From positions 12,593 through 76,592 of the forward strand of contig CAYHBB010000040.1 of the NCBI GenBank assembly GCA_964354795.1: a DNA stretch of 64,000 bases. Reading direction: 5' to 3'. This DNA comes from an uncultured Planctomycetales bacterium (GTDB lineage Bacteria; Omnitrophota; Gorgyraeia; Gygaellales; Profunditerraquicolaceae). Position 1 is the stretch's first letter; each line of letters starts with the position of its first letter. The position numbers and the translations under genes were made by a program. Positions 21,447 through 48,800 of the stretch are shown piece after piece. The notes under the pieces were generated by a model. That model was not told where the DNA came from and made no database searches. It saw only the letters and a list, made by a program, of their open reading frames with translations.

Positions 21447-21492
21447 TGCAACTTCTCCTTTCCTTTATACACCTACTACTCTTTTTTTTATT

Positions 21493-24656: not shown

Positions 24657-24659
24657 ACT

Positions 24660-25547: not shown

Positions 25548-25549
25548 GG

Positions 25550-26869: not shown

Positions 26870-26893
26870 GATTCCTCCTTCCGCAGAAAGCGG

Positions 26894-26922
26894 AACACTG
26901 GCTTATCCTATAAAGCCAGGTG
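26894..26922. repeat. 29-bp palindromic intergenic element, copy B (between PilZ gene and sugar-binding protein gene)
   Basis: This copy is 29/29 identical to copy A. It lies 25 nt upstream of the SBP start codon, the same offset as copy A from the greA start (28 nt). It is followed on the RNA by a second small hairpin, UUCCGCUUUCUGCGGAA. Confidence 0.7.
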
Positions 26923-27060
26923 TAAATTGAAAACCGGCCTTACCTATAATATGAATAGGGTTTTGTTCCGGGGGTTGATTCCGGAGGCAAGTAAATAATA
27001 CTAAAATGTAACATATTTCACAACCAAGGTCAAGGAGATTTGTGCTTGCCCCGAGTGAGA

Positions 27061-27753
27061 TTATGACCTTAAAATCCGTGACAATCCCATCAGGTCAGCT
27101 TTCTCAAGGCTCACCCCGGCGCGATATTCATTCTCACCGATAGGCTTTGTCCAGATGACCTCGCCTCTGGTATAAACAGGCTCTCCCTTGTCAGGTATCT
27201 GCAGCCAGATCTCAACCGTCGTTCGCGGCATTAATTCTTCTTTGGTGCTAAAGCCAATACCCTTAGCGCTTACATCCTGAGTAAGAGCCAAGCCCTCTTT
27301 GCCGCTGTTTAGATCCAGGAACCGCACAGGAAATTTCACCACAAATCTCTGGAAAATCCTTTTATCTTCCATAGACTCTACCGCCTTTTCTTCGGGCTCA
27401 AAATCCTGCCACCAGGTTTTTTCCAGCGCCTCGCGGTGATTCTCGGTTATATAGCGGTAAATCTTTTCCTTGTCGCTGTCTGCGATCCTGGTAAAATACA
27501 GGCCGTAAGTATTCACCCCTTCGCTATGTTTATACCAGCCTACCCAGGCCTCAATATTCAGCACAAAAGTATCTGTTAGCACTAGGGTTAGCTTAATAAA
27601 CTTGTCTTCGGGAAGCTTAAGCGGCAGGGAAAACTTGACCCCCATCATGCTAATATCATCGACATGACAGTTGACGAATTTCTCGGCCCCGGCCAGTCTC
27701 ATCTGCGCCGGCATTCCTACTTTCCATCTGGCGAATCTTCTGCGTACTTCCAT
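27061..27753 (-). CDS. tandem PilZ-domain protein (putative c-di-GMP receptor)
   Basis: 230 aa. There are two PilZ signature pairs: RRRFAR ... DDISMMG (domain 1) and KRIFQR ... DVSAKGIG (domain 2). These match RxxxR + DxSxxG. Confidence 0.65.
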   Translation of the reverse strand: MEVRRRFARWKVGMPAQMRLAGAEKFVNCHVDDISMMGVKFSLPLKLPEDKFIKLTLVLTDTFVLNIEAWVGWYKHSEGVNTYGLYFTRIADSDKEKIYRYITENHREALEKTWWQDFEPEEKAVESMEDKRIFQRFVVKFPVRFLDLNSGKEGLALTQDVSAKGIGFSTKEELMPRTTVEIWLQIPDKGEPVYTRGEVIWTKPIGENEYRAGVSLEKADLMGLSRILRS

Positions 27754-27838: not shown

Positions 27839-30800
27839 TTAATTTTCCTCCTGGCCAAGATCCTGACTGTTTCCATCATTATCCGTATCGACATCTACAT
27901 AGTCTTTTCTGATAGCGAATAATCTGATGTTTTCTAATGCCTCACTCTTGAAATACGCCAGTCGCTCTGATAGTTCTTTATACATAGGGTAAACCGCGGG
28001 CCTCTTTTCCCATGAAGAGGCCTTTGCTTTTTCTTTTAACTTAAGTTGCATCTGGGATGCTTTTTCAAGGAGTGCCTTGGGATCATCCAATACCAGAGAA
28101 GGAAAATTCTTCTCGACATATTCCGCCTTTACCTGAATAAGAAATAATGTTTCTTGATCATTCAGCGGCTTCCCGGATATTTTATTGGCACTGTTGCGAT
28201 TAACCAGGAATCTGATATTTTCTATCCGTGAATAAATAAATATACCGTCATTACGGCCGATAAGCTGCCCGGATAGAGAAAGCTTTACCGCTTCATCATC
28301 CGGCATTAAGAAAACTCGCATTCCTGCGCGCGAACCCTCAACCACTATCACCTGTTGGGCCCCTGCTAATTTGGTGGATTTAATCAGCTCCGCTGTTTTT
28401 TTCTGGTCAAATTTTCCGATTGCGATCGGGGATTCAGGGACAAGATACGGGAAGTCGCTGATATCGGATATACCCGGGACAAAGATCTCAATAAGGCCAC
28501 CGATGGCATCAGGATTACCTGCCCCGCGCACAGAGTCAATTTTCGGCAAATTCTCGATCAGTTTCCCGATACAGTCAAGGGAGTCTTTTATGGCCTTAAG
28601 GCCTTCCGCGGCAAAACCCCTCTTATCATTAAGCGTAAGATCGAAATATGACTGTATTATATTAACCCTGTTATTGAATTTATGGATCACCGTCCGAAGA
28701 ACAGCCTGAAGGATCATTTTTGAAACCTTATCTTTCGCCATATTTTCTGCGATGTGTAACGTCTTGATCAAAGCATTACATGCGCCTAATGAACGGCTTA
28801 TTGCGGCACGTAATTCTTTTATTGCTTCTGAGCCTTCATCTGTAAGATGTTCCAACTTAAACCCGGATGTTATCGATCGCGCCTTATCGATATCGTTCCT
28901 CAAAATCCTATCCAGGACCCATCCCAGTTGACGCACAATCTGCAAAGGCGTTTTTTCGCCGCTTGGGTTGCGGATAGAATCTTCACAAGCCTTAAAAATA
29001 TCGCCTTCGCCTTTTTGCGCGTCTTTAAGGACTTTATTTATCCTGCAATAAGGGCTGCAAGAAGAGCTTTCGCCATGCACCAGCATCTGAGTAATGATCT
29101 CTCTACCGGATTCCGTCAACGCGAAATTCGTAAGCAGAGGGTCATCCGGCCAGAAATACGGCATAAAGTAATCGCATAATTCATGGCGAAAATCAGCTAC
29201 CCTCCTGCCTGACGTTACCCTATATCTTCTTAAGCTGCCGTTATGCCTGTCAGGGCTGTTTTCCCAGGCATACAAATAATCCTGATTAGCCCAGGTAAAT
29301 AATTCCCCGACTTCATGAGCCATGGATAGCTTCAGGACTTGCTTTAAGAAAGCGATTTTATCATCACGCGTAAATATAAGCCTCGTCGGTGAGAAGCCGG
29401 TAGCCTTGGCCATATCCACCAACTCCCCAAGGGATCCTTCCGGCATATCCGCAACCGTGATCTCCCCTTTTAATAAACCCTGAAGATCATTACGCTGTTC
29501 GAATATAGTAATGAATAGCGGGATGCTGCTCTCGGCCCGACGATAAGTGATCCCTTCCAGCAAGAATGCCGGCAACAGACTGACTGAATCCTGAATATCT
29601 TTATCGTTAAGAACCCTTATAAAGCCTTTCCTTGGCCCGCCTTCCGGAGCGCTCCTGCCGTATTCTCTGCGGTCTCTTTCTATGGTCCTTTCTACTACCT
29701 CCCTATCCTTACCCTCTTTAAGGGCCAACTCCAGGGAATATCTCTCCGCCTGCCTGAAGACATATCCTTCATCGGGATAAAACTCTGAGCTGGGTATTAA
29801 TAAGCGGCTATCTTTGGGATTAGAGTATAATCTGTTTTTCTTTGACTGGATCGTTGCGGCTAAGAGCGGGATGACGAAAAGCGCTGCTAATGCCGGCGGA
29901 GCATGAATTAATCCTGGGATTAAAATCGGGGCTAAGATAAAGCAAAGCGCCACCAGCACGAGGAACGCAATTAAAGTTTGGCCGGATCTACTAAAATTAG
30001 AACCGTCTCCTTTCTTGATACGGCTGGCAAGCCTGGCCACATCCGGCTTTTGGGGATGGGCCTTGCCATCAGACCGGGTTACGTCACCAAGGGCATCGAT
30101 TATATTTTGGATATCCATTTCATAATGCGTGTATAAACCTCCTAATGTCTTTCCCATGCCCGCTAATTTGTTCTTGAAATCACCCTTGGTCAGCTGGGAT
30201 AATCTTGACTTTCCGGCAGCTTCGAGAAGTTTGCGTATGAGGAACCGCTGGATCCTGACATCAACATTTTTCCAAAAGGTCTTTGGCCTATCGAAGAGCC
30301 TTCTTGCCGCTTCCTCCATTTTCTCCTCTGTCGATCCAATCTCCACCATTACATCGCCAAGGGCATCTACCATCTTTTGGACATTCATCCCATAATGCCG
30401 GCATAAACCTGCTAATGTCTTTTCTGAGCCCATCACCTGTGTATTAAAATCGTGCACAGTCAACTGGGATAATCTTGACTTTCCGGCAGCTTCAAGAAGT
30501 TTGCGCATGAGGAACCGCTGGATCCTGACATCGACATTTTTCCAACGAGATACTTTCCTCTCGAGGAGCTTTCTTGCCGCTTCCTCTATTTTCTTATCTG
30601 TCAATTTAAGTTTCACTTCCACATCGCCAAGGGTATCGATGATACTCGGGATATTCCGCCCGTAATAAGCGTATAAAGCGCTTAACGTTTTTTCCGTGCC
30701 CATTATCCCGGTCTCCATAAAATCAATATCCGTTAGTTGGGATAATCTTGACTTTACGCAGGCGCGCAGGAGTTCACATATAAGGAACCGCTGGATCCTT

Positions 30801-33800
30801 ACATCGACATTTTTCCAGCGATCCACTCCCTCCTCGAGAAGGTTTTTCGCCGCCTCCACTATTTGTTCCGCTGGCAATTCAATCTCCACATTGCCGAGGG
30901 CATCGATGATATTCTGGATATTTTCCCCGTAATGACAACACAGACCTATTAATGTTTTACCTGAGCCCAGCACCTCGATATAAAAATCATACGCGTTCAG
31001 CTGGGATAATCTTGACTTTCCTGTCTCTTCCAGGAGTTCGCGTATGAGGAACCGTTGGATCCTTACATCGACATTCTCCCAAAAGATATTTTGCCCCGCG
31101 AAGAGTTTTTTCGCCGCCTCCACTATTTGTTCCGCTGGCAATTCAATCTCCACATTGCCGAGGGCATCGATGATATTCTGGATATTTTGCCCGTAATGAT
31201 TGTATAGACCTGTTAACGTTTTACCCGAGCCCAATACCTCGTTATCAAAATCGTGCACGGTCAGCTGGGATAATCTTGACTTTCCTGTCTCTTCCAGGAG
31301 TTCGCGTATGAGGAACCGCTGGATCCTTACATCAACGTTTTCCCAGAAGGTTTTTTGTTTCTCTAGAAGTTTTCTCGCTGCCTCCTCTATTTGGCCCTCT
31401 GTCAATTCAAGCTCCACATCACCGAGGGCATCGATGATTTTCGCGACATCCCTTCCGTAATAAATATAAAAACCCCATAGCCTTTTTCCTGTGCCCATTA
31501 TCCTGGTATCTTTAAAATCAGGCGCATTCAGCTGGGATAATTTTAACTTTCCTGTCTCTCCCAAAAGCTCGTGTATGAGGAACCGCTGGATCCTGACATC
31601 GACTTTTCTCCAATGGATATTTTGCCTCTCCAGGAGGTTTCTCGCTACTTCCCCTATTTTTTCCTCTGTCAATTCAAGCTCCACATCACCAAGGGCATCA
31701 ATGATATTTTGAATATCACTCCCATAATGACAAAATAGACCGCGTAATGTCTTTCCTGAGCCCATTATTTTGATAGTGCTAAAGTTAGTTGTGGTCAGCA
31801 GGGATAATTTTGACTTTCCCGAGGCCTCCATGAGCTTGCGTATGAGGAAACGCTGGATCCTGGCATCAACATTACTCCAAGAAGCTATTTTTTCTTCGAG
31901 AAGTTTTTTCCCCATCTCCTCTATTTGTTCTTCTTGCAATTCAAGCTCCACATCGCCAAGCGCATCGACCATCTGTTGGATATTGCCTCCGTAATGATAG
32001 CATAAACCGCTTAATGCCTTTTTTGAACCCAGTATCTTGGCATTTGCGAAAGCATCCAGGGTCAGCTGGGATAACCGTGACTTTCCGCTGGCTTCCAGGA
32101 GCTCGCGTATGAGGAACTGCTGGACCCTTACATCGACATTTTCCCAGAGGGTTCTTTGCCTCTCGAAAAGTTTTTTCGCCGCCTCTTCTATCTCCTCATT
32201 TGTCAATTCAAGCTCCACATCGCCAAGCGCATCGACCACCTTTTGGACGCTGCTCCCATAATGGTTGTAAAAACCCCTTAACGTATTTTTTGCACCCAAT
32301 ACCTTAATATCAAAATCACTGCTTGCCAGCCGGGATAACCTTGACTTTCCGCTGGCCTTCAGGAGTTCGCATATGAGGAACCGCTGAACGGGAACAGGAA
32401 CCTTCGTCCAATGGATCGTGCCTTTTTTAAGTAAAAGGGTCTCTCCTTTTGCTTGTTCGTAATACACCTCATTTATTTCCTCAGGCAGGAATTTGCCGCC
32501 TTTGGGCCAACGCTTAAGCAAACTAACTGCGCCCGGAAAGTCCATCGCTGCCGAGGTCAAAAGCGCATCTATAAAACCCGGGAAGTGTTTCTCTATTTCT
32601 GCCGGGGTTAGGCCTACAGCTCTGTCGCGTCTCCTTTTTAATCTGATCAGATCATCTTTAGACATATAATCGGTAGCCTCAAGCCTGGCGTCAAATTCAT
32701 CAGCCCCTGTCTCCTCATACCAGGCTTTAACTTCCGGCAGGTGGCTTTTTATTTTTGCGACCGAATAATACGGCTCAAGCTGTCCCGATATTTCCGACAG
32801 CCTCTGCGCAAAATCTGACCTGACATGATCTTGTGCATCGTACCACTGGACAAGGAGTAGCTCCAGCTGGTGCCGGGTGCGCGCCGGTAAAAATGGCTTT
32901 AATGTCCTAAGTTCAAATAGGATATCTTCTAGTTCCGGATTTTTGCCGGCCAGATCCGTTTTTCTGACGCGGTCTGATGACGGCGATATTATGGCATCGG
33001 CTGATAAATTCGCTGCAAGATATAGGGCTTCGAGCTGGACAGGGTCAACCTCGGTCGTTTCAGGTTTATTTTTTCCAAGCGGCCTTATTTCTGATTTGGA
33101 AAAGAGAAGATCTTTTTCTTCTATTTCAGGAACCCGGGTTACATCTTTTACCTTCCTCAAGATCAAGACGTAGAACTTCTTTTCGACGAGGCTGCGTAAG
33201 GCATCGGCTGCATCTTTTCCCATATCGGATTTACAGCTGTTATATATTCTGTCGTCGAGCGTATTATTGATGGGAGAGTCGCTTACAATTTCAAACCCGA
33301 GTTCTGTTAATATGGAGAAAAATCCTTCGCATGGCTGACAGTTCAACGGAAGTGTGATCGCGAACTCTCCGGTCCGCTCATTCGGTTCCTCTGATGTGGA
33401 TGCCCTCAAAAGCCTGTTCGCATGAACGAAAACTTTGAGCCTCTCCTTTGGCGTAAGATGAACGAATACAAAGTTCGACACTAAAACGTCGTAGGCGCCG
33501 GCACGGTAGTAATCGCTTAAGGGAGCCTGCGAAAGATCAATCGGCCTATCAAGCGTTGCGGCACTTTCGACCAGGACCTTGTTCGGATTTTGGCCTTCTG
33601 AGTAAGATTCCACGTCCTTTTCAATATCTACTATTTTCGCCATCGGCATGGCTTTGCCGATCTGCTTTATTACTGTATAAAAGGCGGAGCGGCCCGCACC
33701 TATATCCATTACATTTTGCACCCTGCCTTCGCCTATTGCCCGCGCGTAGCGGTTTGCCAAATATAAGTTCGCCAGATGCGCCACCGTGGCATTGATGAAA

Positions 33801-36800
33801 TGATCGTCTACCGCTTCGTTGGCGCGTCTTGTATCGCCTCTTGCCCAGGCGCGGCGCGCCTTCTCAAGGGCCGTTTGGGCGCAGGTGAGTTTATTGTAAA
33901 TCTCATCGAGCGCGGTTATTTCTTCCCGGGTCAGGAGGTCTATCGGGCCCTGTGATTCATACCTCTGGATCGCGGAATCGAGGAACGCGCGCTCATTTGG
34001 TGTGAAGTAAAATTCTGCCATACCTTTACGTTTCATAATAACCTTTAACTTATCCAGCGCCTTCCGGACCTTTATTGCGCTTTCGAGTTTTGCGTAAAGC
34101 GTATCAATAATGCCGAAATCGTCATCGCCCACGCCAGAGCGGGCTAAAAGCTCGTTAAGCGACGCCCGCTCATCCGGTGATAACGCCTGGCCAAAACGAG
34201 ATATATCATCCAGCCTCTTTGCGTATAGCGACGCCTGTTTTCGCTTTTTCGCTATGGCAGCTTCGACAGTCCCTTTTTCCGGAGGAAAATGAGTCGCGAT
34301 GTCATCCCTTCCTATGGAGAATTCGAAACCGCTAAGCCTGTTCTTTATCGTTACGAAATAATCAGGATAGTTGCCGAAAGCGTCCGGCTTTTTCCTTGCC
34401 GTAAAGTTGCCGGGGATATAATATATATCGACCGTGCCGTCCGCTGCTTTTATGACGCCCCATTCCTTAATCGCTTCTTCATAAATCTTCGATGAGCTAT
34501 GGGCAACTATCACATTTTCGCCGATGCGGGGTTTTTCCGCTGCGCTAACCACCGCCCCCAGCACGCAGGCGCCGAGAATTAGCGCCAGCCCGTGCACTGC
34601 GGTGAGTGCCGCCAGCGCGCCGATCGCCGCCGATGCGACGCCGATCATTATCAAAATTGAGCTTGCGCCGAACGTATCAGGACCTTCCTTATCATCAGAA
34701 AGGTCTCTGCTTTTATAGGGTTCGATAAGCGTAGCCTTTTCGGGGTCATTTACGATTTGCCAATTAAGATCCGCGGGTTTGATCTCTTTGGCTATCCAAG
34801 CCATTGTCAGATGCAGATGAGCCGGCGCGCTGGTCAACTTTTGACGAGGATCCGCGATTCTAACGATGATATCCTGCGCCCGGCATATCCTACCTTCCTC
34901 AATCCCCTGCTCTGGCTGGACATGACCGTAAATGGTATAGAGTTGTTTTCCCTCTCCATCATAGACTTCATGGTTGACAAATATAGTATTACCGATAAAA
35001 TCGTCGATTATCCGCACAATCTTTCCGCCGTAGATAAGCGGCACTCCTTGGCCCGGTTGGACATATTGAATCTTACCTTGTGAATCTTCATACGAATAAA
35101 GATCTATCCCTTCATGGCTAAAGGTGCTTAAGCGCCCTTTTTTCTCCCCCCACCAATATTTTTGGGCCTCAAAGAGCATATCCGGTTCAAAGACCCACTT
35201 TTTAAACCAGCCCGGCAATTTGAAACTCATCAGCCATTTTAGAACCGGACATGCGGCCAGTTCTCGCAGCGCCAGGCGCCATTCTTGAAATGCCTTATCT
35301 GCTTCTTCGCTGATCTTCGATTCATTCTCTTCAAGCTCATCCTGAATACCGGCTATTTCATCTATCAAACTTATTAAAATCTTTCTTTGTTTGATGATTT
35401 CCTCGGGATTTGCCTCAAACAACTCCCTCAACTCCTTTACCCTATCCCTTGCTACCGCAATTAAATCATCGATCTCTTTCAGGTCTCTTGAGTTCTCCAG
35501 CACAGAATCTGCAATTTCTCCGATATCAATAGAAATCAAGTCAATTAAGTACAATATCCTGTCTTCCCGCTCACTCGTTATCGATTCTTTGCCATCATCT
35601 TTTAACCTGCCTCTTTTCCCAATGGCTTCTCTTATTTTCTCCTGGACTTTTGGATCATTGTTCGCCCGCCAGACGATTGCGCTTTCCGCAAGCCCCATCT
35701 TGCCTTTGTAGCGCGTTTCTTGCGCGAGGCTTCTTACGCTCACAGGCATACCTTTTCTTTTCAATCTCTCTATGGCAAGCGATATTTCTCTATCATATGA
35801 TGAACCGACAACCAAAAGAGCTCTCCTTAGATCCGGATGCTCGTCAACAAATCTTCTGACTGTATTCTCATTACTCAGCAATAATATCGCGATCTCATGT
35901 AGGCTAACGGGAGAGCCTTGCGCCTGTAAATATGATATCGCTGAACGAATACTTTTCTCGGTTACAAAAGTGAATTTCGCATCGTCTGTAGCGGATTGTA
36001 AAGTTGTGGATAAAAGCGGGAAGGCAAAAAGCGCGGCTAATGCCGGTCCCGCCACATGCAAGGCAAATAACGGCGCCAGCACCAGTCCGGCAAACGCAAA
36101 AATAGCACAAATACCCCACAGCGACTCAATGCGGCTTGAGCCGGATTTCCCTGCAGAAGTATCTATCCCTCTGCCTGACCTTATCCTGGCGCAGATAAAA
36201 CTTATGATTGAAACAAAGATGTAGGATATGACTCCGATACCCAAAACTATTCCTACCGGCTTGAGGTATTTCTTGAGGCTAAGCGGTTTTGTCTCGGTTA
36301 CAGCAGTTACCTTAGCCCAATCTTCGGGCGCAACTCGCGCCCTTATCGCCTCCAGCGCCGCTTGTGCCGCTTGGCGCTCTGCTTTGGAGTGCTTGATTTC
36401 ATTCGCAGATATAAAGCGAAGTGAAGGCACGGCGCTTATATCGCCAAACCGGCTAAGCCTATGAATAGCAGCTAAACGGATGTTCAAATGCTTTACCTTC
36501 AGGCATTTCAGTAATGTGTCCCTGTCCGAGACAGACTCGGTAATAGATATAAGGCTTGAAGCTGCGGAATTACGCACCCCCTCATCTTCGTCGCTCAAGG
36601 CTTTAATTAGTGGCTCTATTGCCCTGAGATCTTTAAGCTCGCCCAAAGAACAGGCTGCAACGGATCTTAATCTATCGTTAGATCTGCTGTTTAAGTTCTC
36701 GATAAAAGCTGATACCGCTTGCTGATCGCCGATCCCAATCAGGATCTTGGCTACAGATTCAGAACCATATATTTTGTATATTTCGATTAAAACCGGGACT

Positions 36801-39800
36801 GCTTGTCTGTCTCCGGTTTTACCTAAGGCGATTGCGGCAGCTTCCATATCCTCAAAGCTGTATAAATCCTTAAATTCCTCAGCGAGGGCAGAGAATGCGG
36901 GAGGGCCGATATCAGCTAAGGCCCCCCAATCTTTCATGCCGATCAAATATGCAATCTTTTCCTGTAAGTCTTGCGGCTTCCAATCTAACTTACTTAATGA
37001 TCTTGCGCTGCAGCCACGGAGAAATTGCTTTTCGTTTTTCAGCACTTCGATCAGGGCCGGAATCGCTTGTCTGTCAGATATTTGGCCTAAGACCCACGCT
37101 GATGTACCGCGGATATTGATTTCTTCCTTTTTGTCCCTTAATAATCCTATAAGGACAGGAACTACGGATGTGTTAATCTTGCCTAAGCCAGCCAATGCTT
37201 CTAATGCACACAAGCGGCATTGCAAATTATCCTTATCTTTTAATGCCTCAATAAGGCCTGGGACTGCGGGCTGTCCGATTTCAATGAGAGCTTTAACTAC
37301 CAGGCTGCTAGCTTTGCCTCTTAAGGCTTTGATCAAAACAGGAACTGCAGGTTCTCCGATCCTCGCTAACTCAGTAATACGGGACTGAATGTCTTCTCTC
37401 CTATTATTAGACCAACTGTAATATTCTAAACTGGATATTATCTCCTCTATTCTTTCTTGTGTGACTTTGACTGTTTGAGCAATCAACGGCTTTGCAGCGT
37501 TATTTGTTTCCTGCGCATAGATAGCAGTGGAACTAAATACAGCCCAAGATAAAGCAGACATAACTAATACGATAAAAAGTGTAGAATTGATTTTTCTTGA
37601 TTTGATTCTGGTGTAAATAAAGCTTATGATCGAAACGAAGACGTAGAATATGACGCCGACACCCAAGATTATGCCTGCGGGTTTAAGGTATTTTTTGAGG
37701 TTAAGCGGTTTTTTCTCGGGCGCAGCCGTGGCCTTGGTCCATTCTTCGGGAGTGGCGCGCGCCTTGATCGCCTCCAGCGCCGCTGTGGCTGAATTACGAA
37801 TTTGTTTTGACTGTTTGATCTCATTTACGCTAATATCCCTAAGCGCTGCGATCACGCTGGTATCTCCTATCTCGCCAAGCCTCCTTATAGCAACTGAACT
37901 GATTTCCGGATGCTTTGCCTTTGTAACTTCGCTTAAAGCAGATAAATTTGTGGTATTTTCCACAGTGGCTCTAAGGCCTTCGGTGGCGATTTTGGATACT
38001 TCTTCGTCTTTATCATCCACCAGCCTGATTAACGCACAGACTTTACGCTCGGAATCAATTCTTGCCAACGTACGTGCAGCCGGCAGGCGGCCATATCTTC
38101 TTGTGTCTTTCAAAGACTGAACGAGCGGCTCAACAGCCGGTTCTCCGATTTTAACCAAAGCCTCTTCGGCAAAAGAAGAATCTTCGCTAAAGCCGCCGAA
38201 CATCTGCATAAGGGGCCCTATCGTTTTCTCCGGCCTTATTTTCACCAAAACAGTGATAGCAAATTTCTTGATCTCCGGGTCCTGGACAAATATATCCCTG
38301 ATCAAATATTCGGCTGCGGCCGGAGCGCTATTAACCAGCCCTTCATAATCCTGCTTTGCGGCCATATAGCGTATTTTATCTTCTTCTGATGCGGGAACCC
38401 ATTCCAGCGAAGTTAAGACTGAAACTACGGATTTTCTTTCCTGCGCGTAGTCATTGGAGAGATGTTTTACTAAGCGCGGGAGGCTCGGCTTTCCTATATT
38501 AATGAGCTTCTGCCAATCTTTACAGGCAATAGCGTAATCGATCTCCTCTGCTTCGCCGCGAGGACACCAATCCTTCTTTTTAAGCGCAGCTATTGCCGCA
38601 GATCGGACAGAATCCCTGCGATCAGTAAGAAGGATAAGGATTGAACCCGGCGCTCGGCTTTCGATTTCAAACAGCTTGGCGGAAAGTTCGTTATAATTAT
38701 ATTTCGCGGTTGTATACGAGATCTTCTCGTCCGAAGTCCGGGGTTTCCATCCAGCCATATCCAGAACCTTTATGGCAAGAGAAACTTTTTCGTTATCTGC
38801 ATCAGTAAGGAGATCGACCATTTGCGGGACAGCCGCATTTCTATTTTCCAGCGTCGGAACGATCCAATTATCCCTCTTGTATGCCAATAAAGGGCTTGCG
38901 TTTTCACTGGAAAACTCTTCAATCAATACGGGGGTCTCCTTAATAGAAGTATTGATTTTAAAAGAAAGAAAGATTATACCCGGCAAGAAAATGATCAGAA
39001 ATCCCGGAAGGCACTCTCTTCTTTCAAGCTTGTCCAAAACCAGCAAGAACGCTACTGCTGTAAAAAATCCCCATATAAGCGTACCCGCGGTAATAAGCGC
39101 GGGATTAAGCAGGTAAAGGACGATAAAAAATGCATTTATCAGCATAAAACCTAAAGAAGGAGAGTTTCCCTTGAGGCCGTCATCCCTGAGCTCGCAAATC
39201 AAGCTTATCGCGAAGAGCAATAGGTTTATCACCATCGCGGCAAGGATAACTTTTGCGAAAAAGGGCGTGGCTACGGCGGAACAAAGCTTTAAAACAAGTA
39301 GATAGATTGCTATCGAACCGAAAGAAAGAATATTAAATATCATGCCGGTCACCCCCCAATTTACGGCGGCAGGGTGTTTTTCGTCGAATATCCTTTCGTT
39401 TCCCATTTTACGCATAAAATAATAAAGAACAAAGACGCCTGCCAACATCACTATTACAACTATTCCTAAGCCGATGCCGTCATTTACAAAGGGGGTACTC
39501 AATGCCAATGGCAGAATGGCGCAATTGGCTTGCGTTATTTTTTTGACATCCTTTCCCTTTAGTTTCTGCCTTACAGTTGAGTTTTTACGGGAAAACACGT
39601 AACTTACTGCTGAAGCAAAAATATAAAACAAGGCAAATACTCCTAAGATTAGTCCTACAGGCTTGAGGTATTTCTTGAGGCTAAGGGACTGCTTGCTTGT
39701 TGCCTTGGCCCATTCTTCAGAGGAAACCCGTGCCTTAATCGCCTCCATTGCCTCTTGCGCTGCCTGGCGCTCTTCTTTGGAGTACTTGATTTCGTTTTGG

Positions 39801-42800
39801 GAGATGAATTGGAGTTTCGGGATTGCGCTTAGATCGCCCACCTTAACAAGACGCTTGAGAGAAAGTAGGCGAAAATCATAATCATTTACCTTCAGTAATC
39901 TTAATAATGCGGGGTTATCAGAAGAAGATTCTACGATGAGCTTAAGGGTTTCGGCTGCGGATTGGCGGTCAAACACCTCGTCATTTTTCATAACTGCGAT
40001 GAGAAATTCAACTGCGGAAGAGCCGATTTTAGCTAAGGCTTCGACTACGGATGGACGGACATGCCCATACTCATCTTTTAAAGCTGTGATAAGAGGCTTA
40101 ACTGCTCTTGGGTCTTTAAGTTCGGCTAAGGCTTTGGCTGCGGAGAATCGGATATCCCAATCGCCATAATCCAAGAATACTACCAACCTTTCTATTTCTT
40201 TTTTTGTAGCTTCATCTGTCTTAGTTGTCGCGGGGTTTGAATTTGTATCCTGCGCATAGGTAGCTGGAGAATAGAATATTGAAGAGGATAAAGCGAACAT
40301 CAATAATATGGTTAAAAGTTTGAGATTGGATCTGTTCAGGCGGGATCTTATCCTGGCGCTGATATAGCTTGCAAATGCAATAATAGCATAGAGCGCAGCC
40401 AGCGCGCCGGCGATTATTCCTGCGGCATTGAGGTATTTTTTGAGTTGAAGCGGCTTTTTCTCGGCTGCGCCAGTTGCCTTGGCCCATTCTTCTAAAGAGA
40501 CGCGCGCCTTAATCGCCTCCAGCGCTCCCTTGGCCGCCTGGCGCTCTCCACTGGAATACTTGAATTCGTTTTGGGCGATAAATTGCAGATTAGGGATAAC
40601 AGCTATGTCGCTAAACTGTCCCAGCCTCTGAATAGCCAAGAGATTGATTCCACCTTCATTTACTTCAATTAACTTTAGTAATACAGGTATATTTTGGGTG
40701 GATTGAGCAATGGATCGCATGACTGAAATTACTATTTTATGCTTAGCTTGATCCTGGTCTTTTAAAAGCTTGATAAGCGGTTCGACTGCTGGCTGTCCGA
40801 TTTTAATCAAGGTATTTGTCACTACCTGAAGGACATCGGGATCGTCGATTGTCAATAAGCTTAATAATGCCGAAACGCTGTTAAGAGACCCTATCGTCTC
40901 CCTTACTTCCTTAAATTCTTTTAGAGCATAGGCGATCGCGCGCTGGACTTCCTCATTCTTGTCTTCCTTCATTCTAATTAAAGTATCAAAATATTTCTTC
41001 AATGCTTCGTGGTCACCTTTGCTATCAACAATGCAAGCGCCCAAAGCGACGATAGTCCGCGCCCTGACTGCAGGAACCGCATTAGTTAAGTGCGTAGCAA
41101 GCAGGTCTCTATTTTTTGTTTCTTCGCATATTTTCTTTAAAGCCGTGGCTTCCTCGCTATAAACAGATAAATTACTATTATCCCATAATCTACGTGACTC
41201 TAATAAAGGAAGGATGGCCCGAGGGTCCCTCTTTTCTCCCAGCACTTTCACAATATTATCTCCCGTATGACCAAATATCTCGCCTTCTTTCAACTCCTCT
41301 ATTAATGGCTCTATGGTTCTTGGGTCTTGCAATGCGCATAAGATCTCGATAGGTTTCTCATCGCATAGATCTTTATGAAGCAGACGAGTAATGCTTTCTA
41401 AATCCAATTCTCCTTTCCTGATCGCTTCGCAAGCTTCTTTTATATCATTATCGCTGCGGCTATCATTACTTGGAATACAGAAAATCCTCCAAACAATAGG
41501 CGCAAGAGTTTTCTGTAAAACATCATTGACTGTCGCCTCGGCGACTTCATCATGCCCTCTCCAACTCCTAAGGTTATAATAATGTATCAACCCCTTCAGA
41601 ACATTATCATCCTCCAGCATCTTAGCTAATTCTTCGACAGAATGCTTTCTGACCTTTTGGTCATCGTCCCATAATCCTGTCAATAACTCATCTCTCTTCT
41701 GGGCATATGCATTAAGTTCTTTTGTTTGTTTTGTGCAGGCATTTGCAAAAAGGAATACTAAAGAAAATAAAGTAAACATTAAGAAAAGGCTCAGGAGCAT
41801 GGAATTAAACCTGCCTGATTTTAACCTGGCGCGAAAGAAACTAATAAGGCAGATAATAGGATAGAATAAAATAATCGCCCCTAAGATTATTCCCGCGGGC
41901 TTGAGGTATTTTTTGAGTTGAAGCGGCTTTTTCTCGGCTGCGCCAGTTGCCTTGACCCATTCTTCTGTGGAGACGCGCGCCTTGATTGCATTCAGAGCTC
42001 CCTTGGCTGCCTCGCGCTCTGCTTCCTTGAACCTAATTTTATTTGAGGCGATTAAATTTAGCCTGCGGATTGCGCTTGTGTCGCTGAACTGGCCAAGGCG
42101 CTGGATAGCGATAAGCCGAATTCTAGATTCCTTATCTCCTGCTTCTGTTAACCTTAGTAAAGCGGGCACATCTTTTAAGTTGCCCGCGAGAGATAAAAGA
42201 GCCCCAAGCGTTGACCGATTAACATCTTCACAAGTATGCCCCAAAGCTTTAATTAACGGCTCTACCGCTCTTTGGTCTGCGATCTTACCTAAAGCTTCGG
42301 CTGCGGATGAACGAAAGCTCCATTCTGTATAGCCTGCATCACCCAAAGCTTTAATCAATGGCTCTACCGCGGTTCGATCGCCGATCTTACCTAAGGCTTC
42401 GGCTGCGAGAGAACGGGCCTTTGGGTCCTTACCACTTAGAACCTTAATCAAAGGTTCTACTGCCGGCTGACCGATTTTTACCAGGGCTTCGGCATCGGGG
42501 GAGCGGGCAAGCCAGTCTTCATCTTTTAATGCCTCATCAAGAGCAGGAACTGCGGCAGGGCCGATTTTGGCTAGGGCTTCAGCTGCGGCTGAACGGACTT
42601 CTGGATACTGGTATTGTAAAACTCTAATAAGTGCTGGAACGGCATCCTTAGCAGCAGGACCGATTTCACCGAGGGCTTTGGCTACGGATATGGATGAGCG
42701 GACATACCAAAGTTTATCTTTCAATGCTTCGCTAAGGGCTGGGACCGCGTCCTTAGCGGCAGGGCCGATTTTACCTAAGGCGTCGGCAGCGGAACAACAT

Positions 42801-45800
42801 TCATCAGAGGAAGCCCTTCTTTTTAGCTGCTTTATTAACTCTGCTATCTTCTGTTGCGTTGTCTGATCTGTCTGCGCGGTAGTTTGGATTGCGGTATTAG
42901 TAGTTTCCTGCGCATATGCGAGATTCGGATTAGTTATAGCTAGAAACGAAAGGATGAAAAAGAACGGCAAAATCCAGAATCTGCGTAGGAGCGAATTCGG
43001 GGCGCGAGGTTTTTGCGGGCTGGATTTGATCTCGGTCCGGGCATTCCCCCCGATTGTATCCAGAATTGACTGCGTAGCAATAAGGTTCTTAAGCTCTGTT
43101 TGAATAATATTTTGTTTTTGCTCTGCTATTGTAGGCGAGTTGCATCCGACGTTAATAGAGACTGCGCGCGGGAAAGATGCCAGAAGCCTTCTCTCCATGC
43201 CGAAACTCCTTGCTTTATTTCCAACAATAATAAGATTTTCTTCGCTCAGGCCTGTGCGGGAAATAAAATCCCTTGCCGCTTCAAAAGGACCAAATCGCAG
43301 GATATTTAGGCTTTCTTCGCCCTGGAAGATGATTTCTGCGGAAAGGCCTTTTGCCCGCAGCGCCTCCTCTATCTCTGAAGCGAATTTCCGCCTTTCCTTG
43401 GCTAATTTGCTGCTGATCTTTATTTTCACTTTATAGTCCTGCCGCTTGATCTTATAAGAAAGGCCTGTGAGAGCATTTTTTACTACTTCCAAGATAGTTT
43501 GCCGGTCATTCGCGCTCAATTCAAAACGGTAATAACCGACTTTATTCCCCCGCTCGTCAAAACCAAACCCCCTGGTCCCGGTGTTGGAATATAAATGCAA
43601 GTTTTTAAGCAGCTCCTTCGGGATCTGCGCCCAGACTCGCGATTCCAGATTATCTTCTGTTTCATCGGTGATGATGGCAATATGCTTACCGCAACGTAAA
43701 AGATTGACAAGATGATCGTTGATCGCCAGGCTGACCGGCTGCTTAAGCGTAGCTATACAATCCTCCAAGCCGAAGATGAAACCATTGATCTTGCTTAAAT
43801 CGATTTTTACTCCCTGGATCGCGACCGCGCTTGAAACTTCCTGCGGCGCCTTTTCCTGTTTGTCAATTTGCGGCTCTATAACCTTAACTTTTTTGCGCTC
43901 TGTAACGACAATGCCGCTGGCCTTAGCCTTGATCAACCTGTCCCTGGCCCAGGAAAGCGTTTCTCTGACCTTCTTGCTGCCCTCAGCCTTTAAAGCCTTC
44001 TCCACCGCGCCTAAGGCGCCGGGATCTCCCAGTTGTCCCAATGACCATGCTGTCTTTTCTCTTACCTCTTCTGATTTATCGACCAATAGCAGTTCGCTTA
44101 AAACCTCTACGACCTCCGCGGTTTTTTCCGCCAGGGAATCCGTCAGGTCGCCTAAGCCTTCGGCAATAATCGCCCTTAAAGTCTCATCCTTGTCATTCAA
44201 GTATTTAATGGCCTCGCTGACCACCGCCTTGCCTCCTACATCAAGATATGCCTCTGCGGCCATCGTCCTGATTATCGGATCCTTATCCTCTTTGATGGTC
44301 TTCAGCAGCACCAGCAAAACTCCGTTATCTTTGATATTGCGCAGTGCCTGGATCACCTCCTGCCGCACCTCGTCGCTCCTTTCATCCTCTAATGACTTTG
44401 CTAATGCGGGTATGGTGGAGGGATCCGCGAATTTCTTCAAAGCCCTGGCTGACACCTTTCTCACTTCAACCGCAGAGTCATTGTGCAGTGCCGCTATTAA
44501 GTCCTTACCTGAATCCTTGAGGCCAATGACCCCTAATGAGGAAGCGGCCCAATACCTTACCTCCCTGCCCTTATCATTAAGCAGCGCCTTTCTTAATGCC
44601 TGCGCGATAGTCTCGTTCCCCGCATAATCGCCTAAAGCGCCGGCAGCATCGGCGCGGATTTTAGCGTTTCTATCGGTAAGCTCATCGATCAGACGGCGAA
44701 CCTTTATTTCATTATAGTTATTGGTAGTGGCGACGGGGTCGGCCTTGGCATCGTCCATTTTCACAGCCTCGGTTTTAGCTACGGGAACACTGCGGGGCAA
44801 CACAGCTTTTTTCCTCTGCGATTTCGGCATCAGGCTTTCCAGGTCCCTCATCTCCAGCTCATACAAATGGTCGGCTAAATGGACGCCGTCTTCAGTGAAT
44901 TTGAAGAAAAGATGCACGATCCTTAAATACTCCTTGTCGTCAAAATATCCCGGAGTGTGCCCGGTATTTCCGGCCATTTTCTTTACGCTGTCAGGCAGCT
45001 CCTTATCCGTCACCACCGTATTTACGAAAATGAATGCCGGACTTTTTAAATCCCTGATATTCAGCACATCGGGATATCCGGCATTCTGCCTGTATTGCCT
45101 GATATGCAATTTCTCGCCCCTGGGATTCCAGAAACGGAAACCATAGAGGCTGGTATCTTTTAGGCCCCTTTCAGAAATATTGTCAAACTCTTTCTGGATG
45201 ATTTTCTTTATCGCTTTAAAATCGTTATTTGCCCTTAAATCCCGGATAAACTTCGCGTCTCTGTATACCAGATGTGCGTACCTTGATTCGTCCTCCCCGG
45301 AAATGATCTCGTTAAGCGCGATCGCAAGATTAAGGTAGCCCTGGTGGGCATCGGGATAACGGTTGTGCTGGGTAGTGTCCACCACAATGACCACCGGCCT
45401 CTCAGCAAGCATCCTGTACAATATCTGGCTGCGCACAAATTTAGGGTCGATATAATAGGGGTTGGTATGGGTCTCGCTGGAGCCCACCTTGGCAAAGACT
45501 ATATCAATGTCATCCAGTTTCAGATCGCCCTCGATGAACGCCGCGGAAAATCTGCCCAGGGTAAAATTCGGCATTATCCAGACATCTCTGCCAAAAGAGG
45601 CGGACTGGACCTTGACTGCCTCAATGAACTCCTTGAGTTTAAGCGCCTCGTAAGCCGCATAGACAAGCTCATGCTCTATTGTGCCGCTATCGGGCAATCC
45701 TGACAGGCCATGGCAACCTGTACCGGAAAAACGGATATAGTCCTTGTAAGAAAGATTCTTAAATTGCATTGCGATAATGCGGCTGTTATCCACAATGCGC

Positions 45801-48800
45801 CTGAAATTCGAATACTCCAGTTCCGTATGCATGGGGTTATTGATATCGAACCTGCCGGCTTTTATCTGGGTCAGCATTGCCTGCCAATCCCTGTATAGCG
45901 CTATCCTGTCCGCAGCGCTCTTGGCCAGATTGATCAGCTGCTCCGTCGGGAACAGGCCGTGCCGGATGATCTCAAAGATTATATCCAGGGCGCCGCTTAA
46001 TGTAGCCTTGCTCATACCCTTAAAGACCTCGTCGTAGAAATTCTGGATGTCAAAGCCCTGCTGTTTCAACCTATACTCGAGCAACCCGATCGACTCGACG
46101 GTCTGCTCGGCATTGATCGGCCGCAGATCTTTGTCGAACTTCTCGAAGTAGGCCCTGAAACTGCCTTTGTCCTGTATAAGCGCGGCATCGCTTAGCTTGG
46201 TAAGGATCTGCTCAACAATATCCAGGTTGACTTTAAATTCGGACAGATTCCCGGAGACATCGATCGCTACGGGGACCGGGATCTCCAGCAGATGCCGGAT
46301 ATCCTTATTCTGCTGATGCATCCGGTAAGCGATCTCGATCACCGCGCCCAGGACTAAGAGGTCTTCACCCTTGGCGAACTGCTTTCTCGCCTGGTTCCTT
46401 ATGTCATCGAATAGCCTTTCTCCGATCTCTTTCTTGAATCTGCGCAGGATATAGAAATGCTCGGGGTTCAAAGCGGAGGAATAATCGTATTCGCGGGATA
46501 TTGACTCAAATCTAAGTGGGAATATTGAAAACCTGAAGGAAAACCTGACTAAATCTACACCTTTGCCAAATAAGGCAACTCCGGAATCAGACTGCAGCAG
46601 GATAACCGGGATCAGTATGGCTGCAAAAAGAGCAAATGCTGCAGCATAGGTGTATATGACATTAAATATGATCAAGGTAACGCAGATAACTACCGCAATT
46701 ATTCCTACAATAAATCCTGCGCCGCCCCTGCTCTCTGTCCCAAACCTTACCACCTTGGCTAATGTATCTTTGTCTATCCTCTCTTCCTTGCCGATCTTGA
46801 CCACCTCGGACATGGTCTTAAGGAAAGGCAAAGCGGCTTTTCCCTGCGCAGGCGGAGCCCTGATCTCCTGGATGAGCCTCTGGATAAGATAGGCTAAGAT
46901 CCCCAGGACAAATATCCCCAGGACTGCATAAATGACCGGGCTTAAGTTTATGGTAGCGATGGAACCAGCAAAGGCTAAAGGAATAACGGGAGCAAAAGAA
47001 TTTAATGAGGTTGTGTTATTCTGATTCTGCGGCCTCTGCGTCAGGCGGGACCTTATTCTTGCGCAGACAAAGCTTATTATCGAAATAATGGCATAGAACG
47101 CAGCCAGCGCGCCGGCGATTATCCCGGCGGGCTTGAGGTATTTCTTGAGGTTAAGCGGTTTTTTCTCTGGGGCAGACGCAGCCTTTGCCAATTCTTCGAG
47201 AGAGACGCGGGCCATAATTGCCTCCAGCGCCTGCTTGGCTGCATCGCGTTCTTTCTTAGAATGCTTGATTTCATTTGAAGCGATGGCTCTTAAATCATCC
47301 ACTGCATCTAATGCGCCTATTTGGCCAAGGCGATTTATAGCGGCCAGGCGAAGATCGGAATCTTTAAGCTTTAATGATCTTATTGCTACTGAAGCGTCTT
47401 TTGTCGATTCAATGAGCAATCTGGTCTTTATGACGGCGAACTTGCGGATGTCACTAGTCTTGGCCTCCAATAATTTTATTAATATCTCTATATCCTCGGT
47501 TGAATCGGCTATAGGCTGAAGGGCGCTACTGATCTCCCATTTCATGCCCTCTTCGTTTTCGTTTAGGAATTTAACAAGGGCAGCGACTGCTCCAGCGTCT
47601 TGAATTCTGCCTAGCATCTCAATAACGGCCCGTTTCCGAGACGACGCTCTAGCATCCCACCTTACAGCCGAAAACTCATCAATAAGCGGCCCCGTAGCCT
47701 GTTTTCCAACCTTTAGCAAAGCTTCCTCTACATCGGAATCCTCTACTCCAAACGCAATAAGGGTCCTTGCAGTTTCTTCGTTGCCGATTTCACCGAGCGC
47801 CCTAATCGACTCTTTACACTTTAACCTCCCTAAAGCTCCCACTGCGGGTGGCCCGATCCTGACCAGCTCTGGCCAATCTTTATTTGCGATCAAATATAAT
47901 ATTTTTTCTTCTTCGCTTGCCGCTGACCAACCCGCTTCTTTCAAGACTGCTACGGCGCCCTCTCTTATACGCAGGCAATCATCCTCAAGAAGAAAAACCA
48001 AGAAAGGCGCTGCTTCATTCTTCAGGCTGCTTAATGCCTTCCAGTCCTCTTTAGCAATAAAATATTTTATCTTTTCCACATCATTTTTCGGCCGCCAACC
48101 CAGCCTGCTTAAAACCTCAACCATACCTTCGCGCATCTTGCTATCCCCCCGGGGAAGTAATTCTATCAAAGGTTTTATCGCCTGAGGGCCGAGGGAAGAT
48201 ATATCATCGACAAAAGAGTCTTTTCCCCTATTTTGGGCTAGTGCATAAGCAACTTTTTCATGATAAGTTCCCGGCTTCCACCTCGCTGCATCAAGCACTG
48301 TCAATGCAAGATCGGATTTTCTTTTATCGCGATCCGTGAGCAGCTCGATCATTAAAGGGCTGATTTGCCGGCTGCTCCTACCCGCCAGCACGGGAATTGT
48401 CCAGTATTTGTTACGGAAATTTGATGGCCCGGAAGACTCCGTTCTTTCAGCTTCTTCTCTTTCTATGTATTCGCGGATAAGCGCATCATTATCTTTAAAA
48501 GCAGTGGGAATCTTGAAAGAATAGTAGATAATTACCGGTAATACAAAAAGAGCAAAGTAGCCTAGTCTTGCCCTCCAACCGAACTCATCTAGGCTTAAAA
48601 TTGAGATAAGAACCGAAAGGGCGAATACAGAAGAGACGATCAGCCAAAATGATATAAGCCCGGGATTAATGATGAAAAGGGCGAGCAACAGGCCGTTTAA
48701 GATCGTGAAACCGATAGGAACAGCACGGCCAAATAGATCTTCATCCTTTTCTTTCATCATCAGTAAAGAGGCTCTTAAGGCTAATATACAATTCAAGGCA

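What the first reader, a model, noticed from the sequence alone, without database searches (positions are those of the whole stretch)
30085..32430. Nine tandem 264-nt repeats with two near-identical adjacent copies: a likely length-variable, recently expanding array inside the giant gene
The 88-aa unit (NVDVRIQRFLIRELLEETGKSRLSQL...GSGKTLxGLYxHYGxNIQNIIDALGDVELEL.EEQIEEAARKLLE) repeats nine times, head to tail and in frame. Copies 5 and 6 share long runs of identical nucleotides, e.g. cgcctccactatttgttccgctggcaattcaatctccacattgccgagggcatcgatgatattctggatatttt at 30851 and again at 31115. That implies a recent duplication or gene conversion. Such arrays are hotspots for slipped-strand or recombinational copy-number change and for assembly collapse. 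The unit looks like a small helical domain of unknown function. I recognise no family.
Basis: seen in the sequence. Interest (0 to 1): 0.65.

Follow-up and report, generated by a model that had tools for sequence, protein, structure and literature searches.

The report
Nine-copy helical domain array, uncatalogued family
A very long membrane-protein gene from an uncultured Omnitrophota bacterium holds nine diverged, in-frame tandem copies of a small five-helix domain that no domain or structure library recognises; rare relatives fused to sigma factors and helicases show it is a real family, but nothing shows the array is currently expanding.

Summary
Nine head-to-tail, in-frame units of 87-91 aa (261-273 nt) lie at window 30071-32467 on the minus strand, inside an ORF of at least 12,019 aa. 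The organism is Omnitrophota: its MnmG is 87% identical to a Lac Pavin Omnitrophota MAG.

Units 5 and 6 are not near-identical. They are 86-87% identical in nucleotides and 80% in protein. They form a mosaic: an 82-nt exact tract, far longer than chance allows, sits next to patches as diverged as unrelated units. That pattern indicates short-tract gene conversion. Overall the array is old (dS 0.36-1.4, dN/dS 0.2-0.7).

Each unit folds confidently (AF2 pLDDT 93) into five helices. It has no match in Pfam, NCBIfam, PADLOC, PDB or BFVD.

An exhaustive profile search found eight rare relatives, always as tandem arrays of four or five units. They are fused to sigma-70 factors or SF1 helicases, carry a weak sub-threshold HTH match, or sit in a second, unrelated 6,478-aa protein.

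The array is most likely a cytoplasmic, membrane-tethered, non-catalytic binding scaffold, amplified in this lineage from one founder unit. Length variability and recent expansion are untested and unsupported. No orthologous array was found in any collection searched.

The parts
27839..63898 (-). Host gene: ORF of at least 12,019 aa. It has an N-terminal HAD hydrolase and a SLOG domain, then about 9,000 aa of HEAT-repeat modules separated by transmembrane pairs, then a tail that holds the array.
   Evidence: ORF list. Pfam hits to HEAT_2, HEAT_PBS, Hydrolase_3 and LDcluster4. Hydropathy scan and recurring boundary motif. The reading frame stays open to window end 64000, so the gene may be cut at its 5' end.
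30071..32467 (-). The array: nine tandem in-frame units (aa 10478-11276) of an uncatalogued five-helix domain.
   Evidence: An HMM built only from relatives recovers all nine units.
32204..32467 (-). Unit 1 (88 aa), the most divergent unit.
31937..32203 (-). Unit 2 (89 aa).
31670..31936 (-). Unit 3 (89 aa).
31403..31669 (-). Unit 4 (89 aa).
31139..31402 (-). Unit 5 (88 aa). This unit was modelled by AF2 (pLDDT 93.2, five helices).
30875..31138 (-). Unit 6 (88 aa), the mosaic partner of unit 5.
30602..30874 (-). Unit 7 (91 aa). Its first helix is nearly identical to that of unit 6.
30332..30601 (-). Unit 8 (90 aa).
30071..30331 (-). Unit 9 (87 aa), the last unit. About 32 aa separate it from the membrane hairpin.
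31107..31188 (-). First copy of the 82-nt exact tract (gene-conversion tract). It spans the end of unit 5 and the start of unit 6.
30843..30924 (-). Second copy of the 82-nt exact tract. It spans the end of unit 6 and the start of unit 7.
29855..29974 (-). Predicted transmembrane hairpin (aa 11309-11348) directly after the array. Both of its flanks are rich in K and R.
   Evidence: Hydropathy scan and sequence. The topology is inferred.
34559..34657 (-). Predicted transmembrane hairpin (aa 9748-9780) that bounds the array-bearing segment on its N-terminal side.
   Evidence: sequence.
32489..34531 (-). Unannotated 680-aa segment between the upstream hairpin and the array. The only hint is a weak methyltransferase-like match (VMDIGAG motif; Methyltransf_12 at E=0.23).
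27842..29851 (-). Unannotated 670-aa C-terminal domain after the last hairpin.

Best explanation
The region encodes nine tandem copies of a non-catalytic, five-helix domain of about 89 aa. The domain belongs to a rare family that no library describes. The family signature is W-x-x-(V/L)-P...Q-x-x-L-(V/I)-x-x-L...G-K...L-(T/S)-x-x-D-(F/Y)...G-x-x-L-x-G-L-Y-x-x-Y...L-G.

All nine units share a shortened C-terminal segment that relatives lack. They are much more like each other (mean 56% aa) than like any relative (about 23%). The array therefore arose in this lineage by amplification of one founder unit, then diverged under purifying selection. Occasional short-tract gene conversion between neighbouring units has occurred, most recently between units 5/6 and 6/7.

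Functionally, it is most likely a cytoplasmic, membrane-proximal string of binding modules. It is tethered about 32 aa from a transmembrane hairpin in the tail of a very long HEAT-repeat membrane protein. It probably serves as a multivalent scaffold for a partner, and by association that partner is likely to be nucleic acid or nucleic-acid machinery.

Shown: the copies, the reading frame, the divergence, the mosaic, the confident helical fold, the existence of the family and its fusion partners. Inferred: founder amplification, cytoplasmic location and the binding or scaffold role.
For: Array and units.

Fold: a single unit gives pLDDT 93.2 and pTM 0.84 with five helices. Three units give pLDDT 88.1 and pTM 0.65 with the same five helices in each unit.

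No known family: Pfam, NCBIfam, PADLOC, PDB profile search (best E=0.15), Foldseek against PDB (best E=4.9 and TM of 0.35 or less; three units), Foldseek against BFVD.

Partners: sigma-70 regions 3 and 4 (P0012 and its tandem paralogue in L003). SF1 IGHMBP2/Upf1-like helicases (P0004 and the L088 helicase, with a free-standing array protein next door). A weak HTH match below Pfam's cut-off (P0003, P0007). A Pol X and MGMT-like neighbourhood. These are all cytoplasmic, nucleic-acid-related contexts.

No conserved catalytic-type residues: the nearly invariant family columns are W, L and G only.

Evolution: dS 0.36-1.4 and dN/dS 0.2-0.68. Identical residues use the same codon in 69% of unit pairs against 36% expected, decaying from 76% for adjacent units to 60% for the most distant. 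The window array has the highest within-array identity of the family. The 82-nt tract has p<5e-5, and pS along the pair is mosaic.

Location: both flanks of the hairpin after the array are K/R-rich.
Against: Function is inferred only from fusion partners in distant relatives (about 23% identity) and from charge-rule topology.

Most window units are acidic or neutral (net charge -8 to +6), whereas relatives' units are mostly basic with pI 9-10.8. That weakens a direct nucleic-acid-binding role for this particular array.

The published TMHMM analysis of Omnitrophota giant proteins places most domains outside the cell, though its authors call those predictions unreliable (10.1101/2023.11.21.568195). 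No dedicated topology predictor was available here.

The family profile was built from the window units only and could not be iterated, so the apparent rarity may be understated.

Confidence: 0.55

Rival explanations
1. One reading: the array is a contingency-type hotspot whose copy number is changing now in the population by slippage or unequal recombination, with units 5 and 6 as the newest duplicate.
For: The tandem head-to-tail geometry and the 82-nt exact tract shared by neighbours give a substrate for unequal recombination. Same-codon use decays with distance between units. Copy number differs among family members at 4, 5 and 9, so it is labile over evolutionary time.
Against: All pairs differ by at least 13% in nt. 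dS is at least 0.36 even for the closest pairs, and dN/dS is 0.2-0.7. The 5/6 similarity is a mosaic with fully diverged patches, not a fresh duplicate. Only one tract longer than 35 nt is shared. The 2026 Omnitrophota survey concludes that repeat architectures in long genes are generally not products of recent tandem expansion (10.64898/2026.06.07.730766). No variant allele was found in any collection.
Confidence: 0.1
2. The array is exported and acts as an extracellular helical stalk or adhesion rod, like the helical repeat rods of giant Gram-positive surface proteins.
For: The host is a very long membrane protein of a phylum whose giant proteins are proposed to act at the cell surface. The three-unit model keeps each unit folded with moderate inter-unit confidence (pTM 0.65).
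Against: Relatives of the unit occur in sigma factors and SF1 helicases and stand next to DNA-repair genes, which are all cytoplasmic. Both flanks of the adjacent hairpin are K/R-rich. The preceding segment has a weak SAM-methyltransferase-like motif.
Confidence: 0.12
3. The array is a direct polymer-reading device: each unit contacts a stretch of DNA or RNA, as in Topo V (HhH)2 arrays or PUF/TALE-type repeats.
For: Relatives' units are mostly basic with pI 9-10.8. They are fused to helicases and sigma factors, and some carry a weak HTH match. Variable positions cluster in one loop and short-helix patch of each unit.
Against: Window units 2-7 are acidic (net -2 to -8). No basic residue is conserved across the family. 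There is no structural match to HhH, HTH, PUF or TALE folds. The weak TetR-HTH Foldseek hits have E of about 5.
Confidence: 0.15
4. The array or its copy count is an assembly artefact.
For: Repeats can be collapsed or inflated by short-read assemblers, and no reads were available here.
Against: All nine units are distinct. The longest exact run shared between units is 82 nt, shorter than common read lengths. The 36-kb reading frame runs through the array without interruption. An independent Logan assembly of run ERR4334728 matches window 23699-26901 at 3202 of 3203 nt, so the flanking assembly is reproducible.
Confidence: 0.03

Closest known systems
Very long HEAT-repeat, many-transmembrane proteins of Omnitrophota ('Archaeovorin'-type giants of West-Roberts et al. 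2023; 'tandem-repeat scaffold' class of the 2026 complete-genome survey)
   Same: Omnitrophota host. HEAT_2 is by far the commonest domain, and there are many TM segments, a HAD domain and a LOG/SLOG-type domain. Diverged tandem nucleotide repeats inside the gene are reported as the rule in such genes.
   Different: At 12,019 aa or more it is below the >90,000-bp threshold of the 2023 set. Pfam found no SecA_DEAD, glycosyl transferase, glycosyl hydrolase, NUDIX or peptidase domains. Term searches of both papers found no mention of this 88-aa helical unit.
Helical-bundle repeat rods in giant bacterial surface proteins (Staphylococcus Ebh FIVAR/GA repeats) and spectrin repeats (own knowledge)
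   Same: Tandem all-helical domains of about 90-125 aa in a very long protein, joined by a linker helix.
   Different: Those are three-helix bundles, and Ebh is extracellular. This unit has five helices, gives no sequence or Foldseek match to them, and is probably cytoplasmic.
Tandem (HhH)2 domains of Methanopyrus topoisomerase V (own knowledge)
   Same: A long run of small helical domains attached to nucleic-acid enzymes. Relatives of this unit are fused to helicases and sigma factors.
   Different: No HhH hit by sequence or structure. The window units are mostly acidic.
SAM/Pointed domain (ETV6/TEL)
   Same: The weak best PDB profile hit aligns '[30 protein letters not shown]' to the unit core. 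Both are helical domains of about 80-90 aa that begin with a conserved W.
   Different: The hit has E=0.15. hhalign probability is only 17%. No SAM or PNT structure appears among the Foldseek hits. This is not a supported relationship.

Membership tests
Omnitrophota giant 'Archaeovorin' proteins (West-Roberts et al. 2023) | Encoded in an Omnitrophota genome | tested here: met
   The window's MnmG is 87% identical to Omnitrophota MAG LacPavin_0920_SED3_MAG_45_14. The next best hits, at 71, 69 and 66%, are also Omnitrophota.
Omnitrophota giant 'Archaeovorin' proteins (West-Roberts et al. 2023) | Gene longer than 90,000 bp | tested here: not met
   36,060 bp lie within the window. The frame is open at the window edge, so the true length is unknown but is at least 12,019 aa.
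Omnitrophota giant 'Archaeovorin' proteins (West-Roberts et al. 2023) | HEAT repeats as the commonest domain, plus numerous transmembrane helices | tested here: met
   HEAT_2 at E=1e-253, 1e-196 and 3e-38 in the three thirds of the protein. About 30 hydrophobic clusters.
Omnitrophota giant 'Archaeovorin' proteins (West-Roberts et al. 2023) | SecA DEAD-like domain and the set of glycosyl transferases, glycosyl hydrolases, NUDIX and peptidases | tested here: not met
   None of these appears among Pfam hits at E<=0.01 (first two thirds) or E<=1 (last third).
New tandem five-helix domain family (defined here by P0002-P0007, P0012, P0013) | Significant reciprocal profile similarity | tested here: met
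   The window-unit profile finds the relatives. An HMM built only from relatives finds all nine window units at E of 1e-6 to 8e-12.
New tandem five-helix domain family (defined here by P0002-P0007, P0012, P0013) | Occurs as head-to-tail arrays of at least three units | tested here: met
   Nine units here and 4-5 in every relative.
New tandem five-helix domain family (defined here by P0002-P0007, P0012, P0013) | Same five-helix fold in relatives | not tested
   Only window units were modelled. Relatives contributed as alignment rows.
Any Pfam, NCBIfam or PADLOC family | A single unit scores above a curated threshold | tested here: not met
   A single unit gave no hit at E<=1. The 39 units scanned one by one gave no shared family. 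The DUF4290 score of 49 bits for the whole array has no individually significant stretch, so it is a summation over repeats. NCBIfam and PADLOC gave only sub-threshold noise.
SAM / Pointed domain | Significant profile or fold similarity | tested here: not met
   PDB profile E=0.15. hhalign probability 17%. No SAM structure among Foldseek hits.
Contingency locus / length-variable repeat | Several copy-number alleles in a population, or near-identical units | not testable with these tools
   No reads were available. No orthologous array was found in genome, metagenome or protein collections. The units are 59-87% identical, not near-identical.

The most novel reading that the evidence does not exclude
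The 90-105-aa unit is a new fold and domain family that works as a multivalent tether for nucleic acid or the transcription and helicase machinery. In this Omnitrophota protein, a nine-unit version would hold such a partner against the inner face of the membrane, beneath a chain of exported HEAT modules. That would couple a cytoplasmic nucleic-acid process to a giant envelope protein.
Probability: 0.12. Interest if true: 0.65.

Novelty: new member of a known kind. Interest (0 to 1): 0.38.

Why it matters
Tandem domain arrays inside very long Omnitrophota genes are already described as the rule, so the array as such is ordinary. What is new is the unit. It is a confidently folded five-helix domain that no sequence or structure library recognises. 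It defines a rare family that always occurs in tandem and has been joined repeatedly to sigma-70 factors, SF1 helicases and two unrelated very long proteins. It annotates 800 aa of 'dark' sequence in a giant protein and offers a testable lead, a cytoplasmic nucleic-acid-associated scaffold, for a protein class whose function and topology remain open. The array is also a clean small example of founder amplification followed by divergence with short-tract conversion.

Tried and rejected
1. Word-indexed protein search with the nine units, with the 39-unit family alignment and with the whole array returned nothing. This negative is weak. The alignment contained exact segments of P0003 and others that are in that collection, yet they were not returned.

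2. Related loci: a genome-contig scan and a metagenome-contig scan with the unit alignment, and a metagenome-contig scan with the C-terminal domain, gave no confirmed relative. The 39-unit alignment was too diverse for pattern scanning.

4. The SAM/Pointed lead from a weak PDB hit was rejected.

5. The DUF4290 hit was rejected as a repeat-summation artefact.

6. My impression by eye of an M23-peptidase-like stretch at aa 9600-9700 got no support from Pfam or PDB and is dropped.

7. A possible degenerate tenth unit upstream ('HFPGFIDALL') is not supported.

8. Positive selection as the explanation for the 5/6 variable patches was rejected, because synonymous divergence is also high there.

9. 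No Rfam family lies in 29000-33500. The plus-strand ORFs there are at most 88 aa and simply repeat with the array.

11. The source sample could not be identified: the PilZ and SBP look-ups failed, and a literature search for ERR4334728 was empty.


Full report
OBSERVATION

Tandem Repeats Finder reports a single strong array at 30188-32386, with period 267, 8.2 copies, 74% matches and score 1606. It lies on the minus strand inside one ORF, 27839-63898, of 12,019 aa. That frame is still open at the window edge, so the gene may be longer.

Anchoring on the V[DP]..[IV]Q.FL motif gives nine units spaced 88, 89, 89, 89, 88, 88, 91 and 90 aa. The region upstream of unit 1 already carries the 'EE.I.E…W' helix, and unit 9 ends at 'DALGDV'. 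The natural domain register therefore starts with that helix, and in it all nine units are complete: aa 10478-11276, window 30071-32467. An HMM of the units finds exactly nine domains, and neither flank hides a degenerate tenth.

The quoted 74-mer is exact at 30851 and 31115. The longest exact run shared by units 5 and 6 is 82 nt.

No Rfam family lies in the region. The only plus-strand ORFs there are short and periodic.

HOW SIMILAR ARE THE COPIES

Pairwise identity is 59-75% in nt and 39-62% in aa, except for units 5/6 at 86-87% nt and 80% aa, with 37 differences in 264 nt.

Nei-Gojobori estimates give dS of 0.36-1.4 and dN/dS of 0.2-0.68 for all 36 pairs. Each unit is therefore old and under purifying selection.

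The 5/6 pair is a mosaic. Proportions of synonymous and non-synonymous differences by segment:

| Segment (aa) | pS | pN |
|---|---|---|
| 1-25 | 0.105 | 0 |
| 26-50 | 0.42 | 0.17 |
| 51-76 | 0 | 0 |
| 77-88 | 0.67 | 0.46 |

An 82-nt perfect run is never reached in 20,000 permutations of the same 37 differences (mean 27, maximum 72). Because synonymous divergence jumps between 0 and the array-wide level, the pattern indicates short-tract gene conversion or unequal exchange. It is not a clean recent duplication, and it is not positive selection alone.

Across the array, identical residues use the same codon in 69% of unit pairs against 36% expected from the gene's own codon usage. This falls from 76% for adjacent units to 60% for the most distant. 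That is the usual signature of local duplication or conversion in a tandem array.

WHAT THE UNIT IS

AlphaFold2 on unit 5 with a 39-unit alignment gives pLDDT 93.2 and pTM 0.84 with five helices. Units 4-6 together give pLDDT 88.1 and pTM 0.65, with the same five helices in each unit.

Nothing known matches:
- Pfam gives no hit for a single unit. A 49-bit DUF4290 score for the whole array has no individually significant stretch, and 39 units scanned singly share no family.
- NCBIfam and PADLOC give only noise.
- A PDB profile search peaks at E=0.15 on the ETV6 SAM/Pointed domain. hhalign does not support that lead (17% probability), and neither does Foldseek.
- Foldseek against PDB has a best E of 4.9 with TM of 0.35 or less. 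The three-unit model also finds nothing, and BFVD finds nothing.

A REAL BUT RARE FAMILY

The exhaustive HMMER search of 1.84 billion cluster representatives with the nine-unit profile returned 13 proteins at E<1e-3. Five are unrelated repeats (LysM and others).

Eight carry tandem units of 95-115 aa with the same signature. The signature is W..(V/L)P…Q..L(V/I)..L…G…L(T/S)..D(F/Y)…G..L.GLY..Y…(F/I)(I/L)…LG.

The relationship is reciprocal. An HMM built only from the relatives recovers all nine window units at domain E of 1e-6 to 8e-12 for a database of a million sequences, with 366 bits in total. Scanning the fetched loci found two more members that were never in any model.

The architectures are informative:
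- P0012 and the gene directly upstream of it carry five units in front of sigma-70 regions 2-4.
- P0004 and the L088 helicase carry four or five units in front of an IGHMBP2/Upf1-like SF1 helicase. In L088 a free-standing array protein sits immediately upstream, in a neighbourhood syntenic with L084.
- P0003 and P0007 each give a weak HTH match below Pfam's cut-off. P0003 follows Pol X and MGMT-like genes.
- P0005 is a 6,478-aa multi-pass protein that shares nothing with the window protein except a four-unit array.

All members are rare, unnamed metagenome proteins. The nearly invariant family columns are W, L and G only. This is a structural or binding domain, not an enzyme.

ORIGIN OF THE NINE COPIES

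The window units share a shorter segment between 'HY' and 'IIDALG' than all relatives. They are 56% identical to each other on average, the highest within-array value in the family, against about 23% to any relative. I infer amplification from one founder unit within this lineage. Copy number in the family (4, 5, 9) is thus labile on evolutionary time, but dS of at least 0.36 says the amplification is not recent.

HOST AND LOCATION

The window is from Omnitrophota: MnmG is 87% identical to a Lac Pavin Omnitrophota MAG, and the next best hits are also Omnitrophota.

The host protein starts with a HAD hydrolase and a SLOG domain. About 9,000 aa of HEAT repeats follow, cut into modules by about 30 hydrophobic clusters. 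The module boundary recurs as '…EEWAKA…KKYLKPAG-TM-RARIRS.R-TM-(V/I)xAQ(D/N)T'.

This resembles the HEAT-rich, many-TM 'Archaeovorin' giants (10.1101/2023.11.21.568195) and the 'tandem-repeat scaffold' class of the 2026 survey (10.64898/2026.06.07.730766). It differs in being below the 90-kb threshold and in lacking their SecA-like and carbohydrate-enzyme domains.

The array sits in the tail, between predicted hairpins at aa 9748-9780 and 11309-11348. It ends about 32 aa before the latter. Both flanks of that hairpin are K/R-rich, the preceding segment has a weak SAM-methyltransferase-like motif, and every relative is in a cytoplasmic protein. From these I infer a cytoplasmic location. That is an inference, not a result.

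MECHANISM

I commit to a cytoplasmic, membrane-tethered, multivalent scaffold of nine non-catalytic helical modules. Its partner is, by association, likely to be nucleic acid or nucleic-acid machinery.

The main caveat is charge. Window units 2-7 are acidic (net -2 to -8), while relatives' units are mostly basic with pI 9-10.8. This copy may bind protein or act as a spacer.

CURRENT COPY-NUMBER VARIATION

This could not be tested. No orthologous array exists in GTDB species genomes, JGI metagenomes or the protein collections searched. The word-indexed searches failed a positive control, so their negatives are weak.

A Logan contig from run ERR4334728 matches window 23699-26901 at 3202 of 3203 nt. 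That identifies a read set in which the count could be checked.

An assembly artefact is unlikely. All units differ, and the longest shared exact run is 82 nt.

VERDICT

The array is an ordinary kind of feature for an Omnitrophota giant gene, built from a domain family that has not been catalogued.

Noticed in passing
window 63899-64000 (-): The giant ORF's reading frame has no stop between the called GTG start (63898) and the window edge. The gene may continue upstream, and the protein may be longer than 12,019 aa.
   Followed up: partly
window ~37500-60200 (-), aa ~1220-8800 of the giant protein: A module boundary recurs at least ten times: 'EEWAKA…KEPL.LKKYLKPAGII-[TM]-RARIRS.R-[TM]-(V/I/H)xA|Q(D/N/E)T'. 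The positive loop, second TM and AxA-like site look like internal signal peptides with signal-peptidase-I-type cleavage sites. The HEAT modules may therefore be exported and possibly released as separate pieces.
   Followed up: partly
window 34559-34657, 29855-29974 and ~36013-36114 (-): Three related transmembrane hairpins lie in the tail, with an 'H-(V/A/G)-(A/P)-(G/P)' turn and a 'PALAALF.(F/I)PLL' second helix. They bracket the unannotated tail segments, including the array.
   Followed up: no
window 50381-50573, 58206-58482, 61431-61795: Three further tandem nucleotide repeats of period 96-99 nt (2-3.7 copies, 70-85% matches) lie inside the same gene. They fall in the part of the protein that Pfam calls HEAT repeats.
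   Followed up: partly
window 62309-63757 (-), aa 48-530: The N-terminus combines a HAD-type hydrolase (Hydrolase_3) and a SLOG cluster-4 (LOG-like) domain before the first hydrophobic segment at aa 577-599.
   Followed up: no
L003 7293-12769: Two adjacent paralogous genes (903 and 922 aa) each encode five units of the new domain followed by sigma-70 regions. They look like a tandem pair of long-N-terminus sigma factors in an unidentified MAG (GCA_020723205.1).
   Followed up: partly
L084 254-8963 and L088 6418-13468: A syntenic block appears in two unrelated contigs: an unknown protein of about 490-510 aa, a small protein or a free-standing array protein, and an SF1 helicase with N-terminal units. 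In L084 a second ResIII/Helicase_C helicase follows. In both contigs a class-I aaRS (tRNA-synt_1c) and a Peptidase_S49 gene then follow. The helicase core resembles the IGHMBP2 family and Mokosh MkoA.
   Followed up: partly
L001 10001-29437 (P0005): A second very long protein (6,478 aa) carries a four-unit array and many short 'RSE(L/V)R'-type motifs. Apart from the array it shares no detectable similarity with the window protein.
   Followed up: partly
L090 (Logan ERR4334728) versus window 23699-26901: An independent public assembly matches at 3202 of 3203 nt, so the same strain is present in run ERR4334728. That run is a read set in which the array could be checked.
   Followed up: partly
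tool behaviour: The word-indexed protein search returned no hits even for an alignment containing exact segments of proteins that are representatives in that collection. Its negative results for this repeat family should not be trusted.
   Followed up: partly
window 14720-27753 (-): Downstream of the giant gene lie a PilZ-domain protein, a sugar-type ABC binding protein with two permeases, two GH2-like TIM-barrel proteins with TPR, and a ROK-family protein. This may be a carbohydrate-uptake block co-oriented with the giant gene.
   Followed up: no
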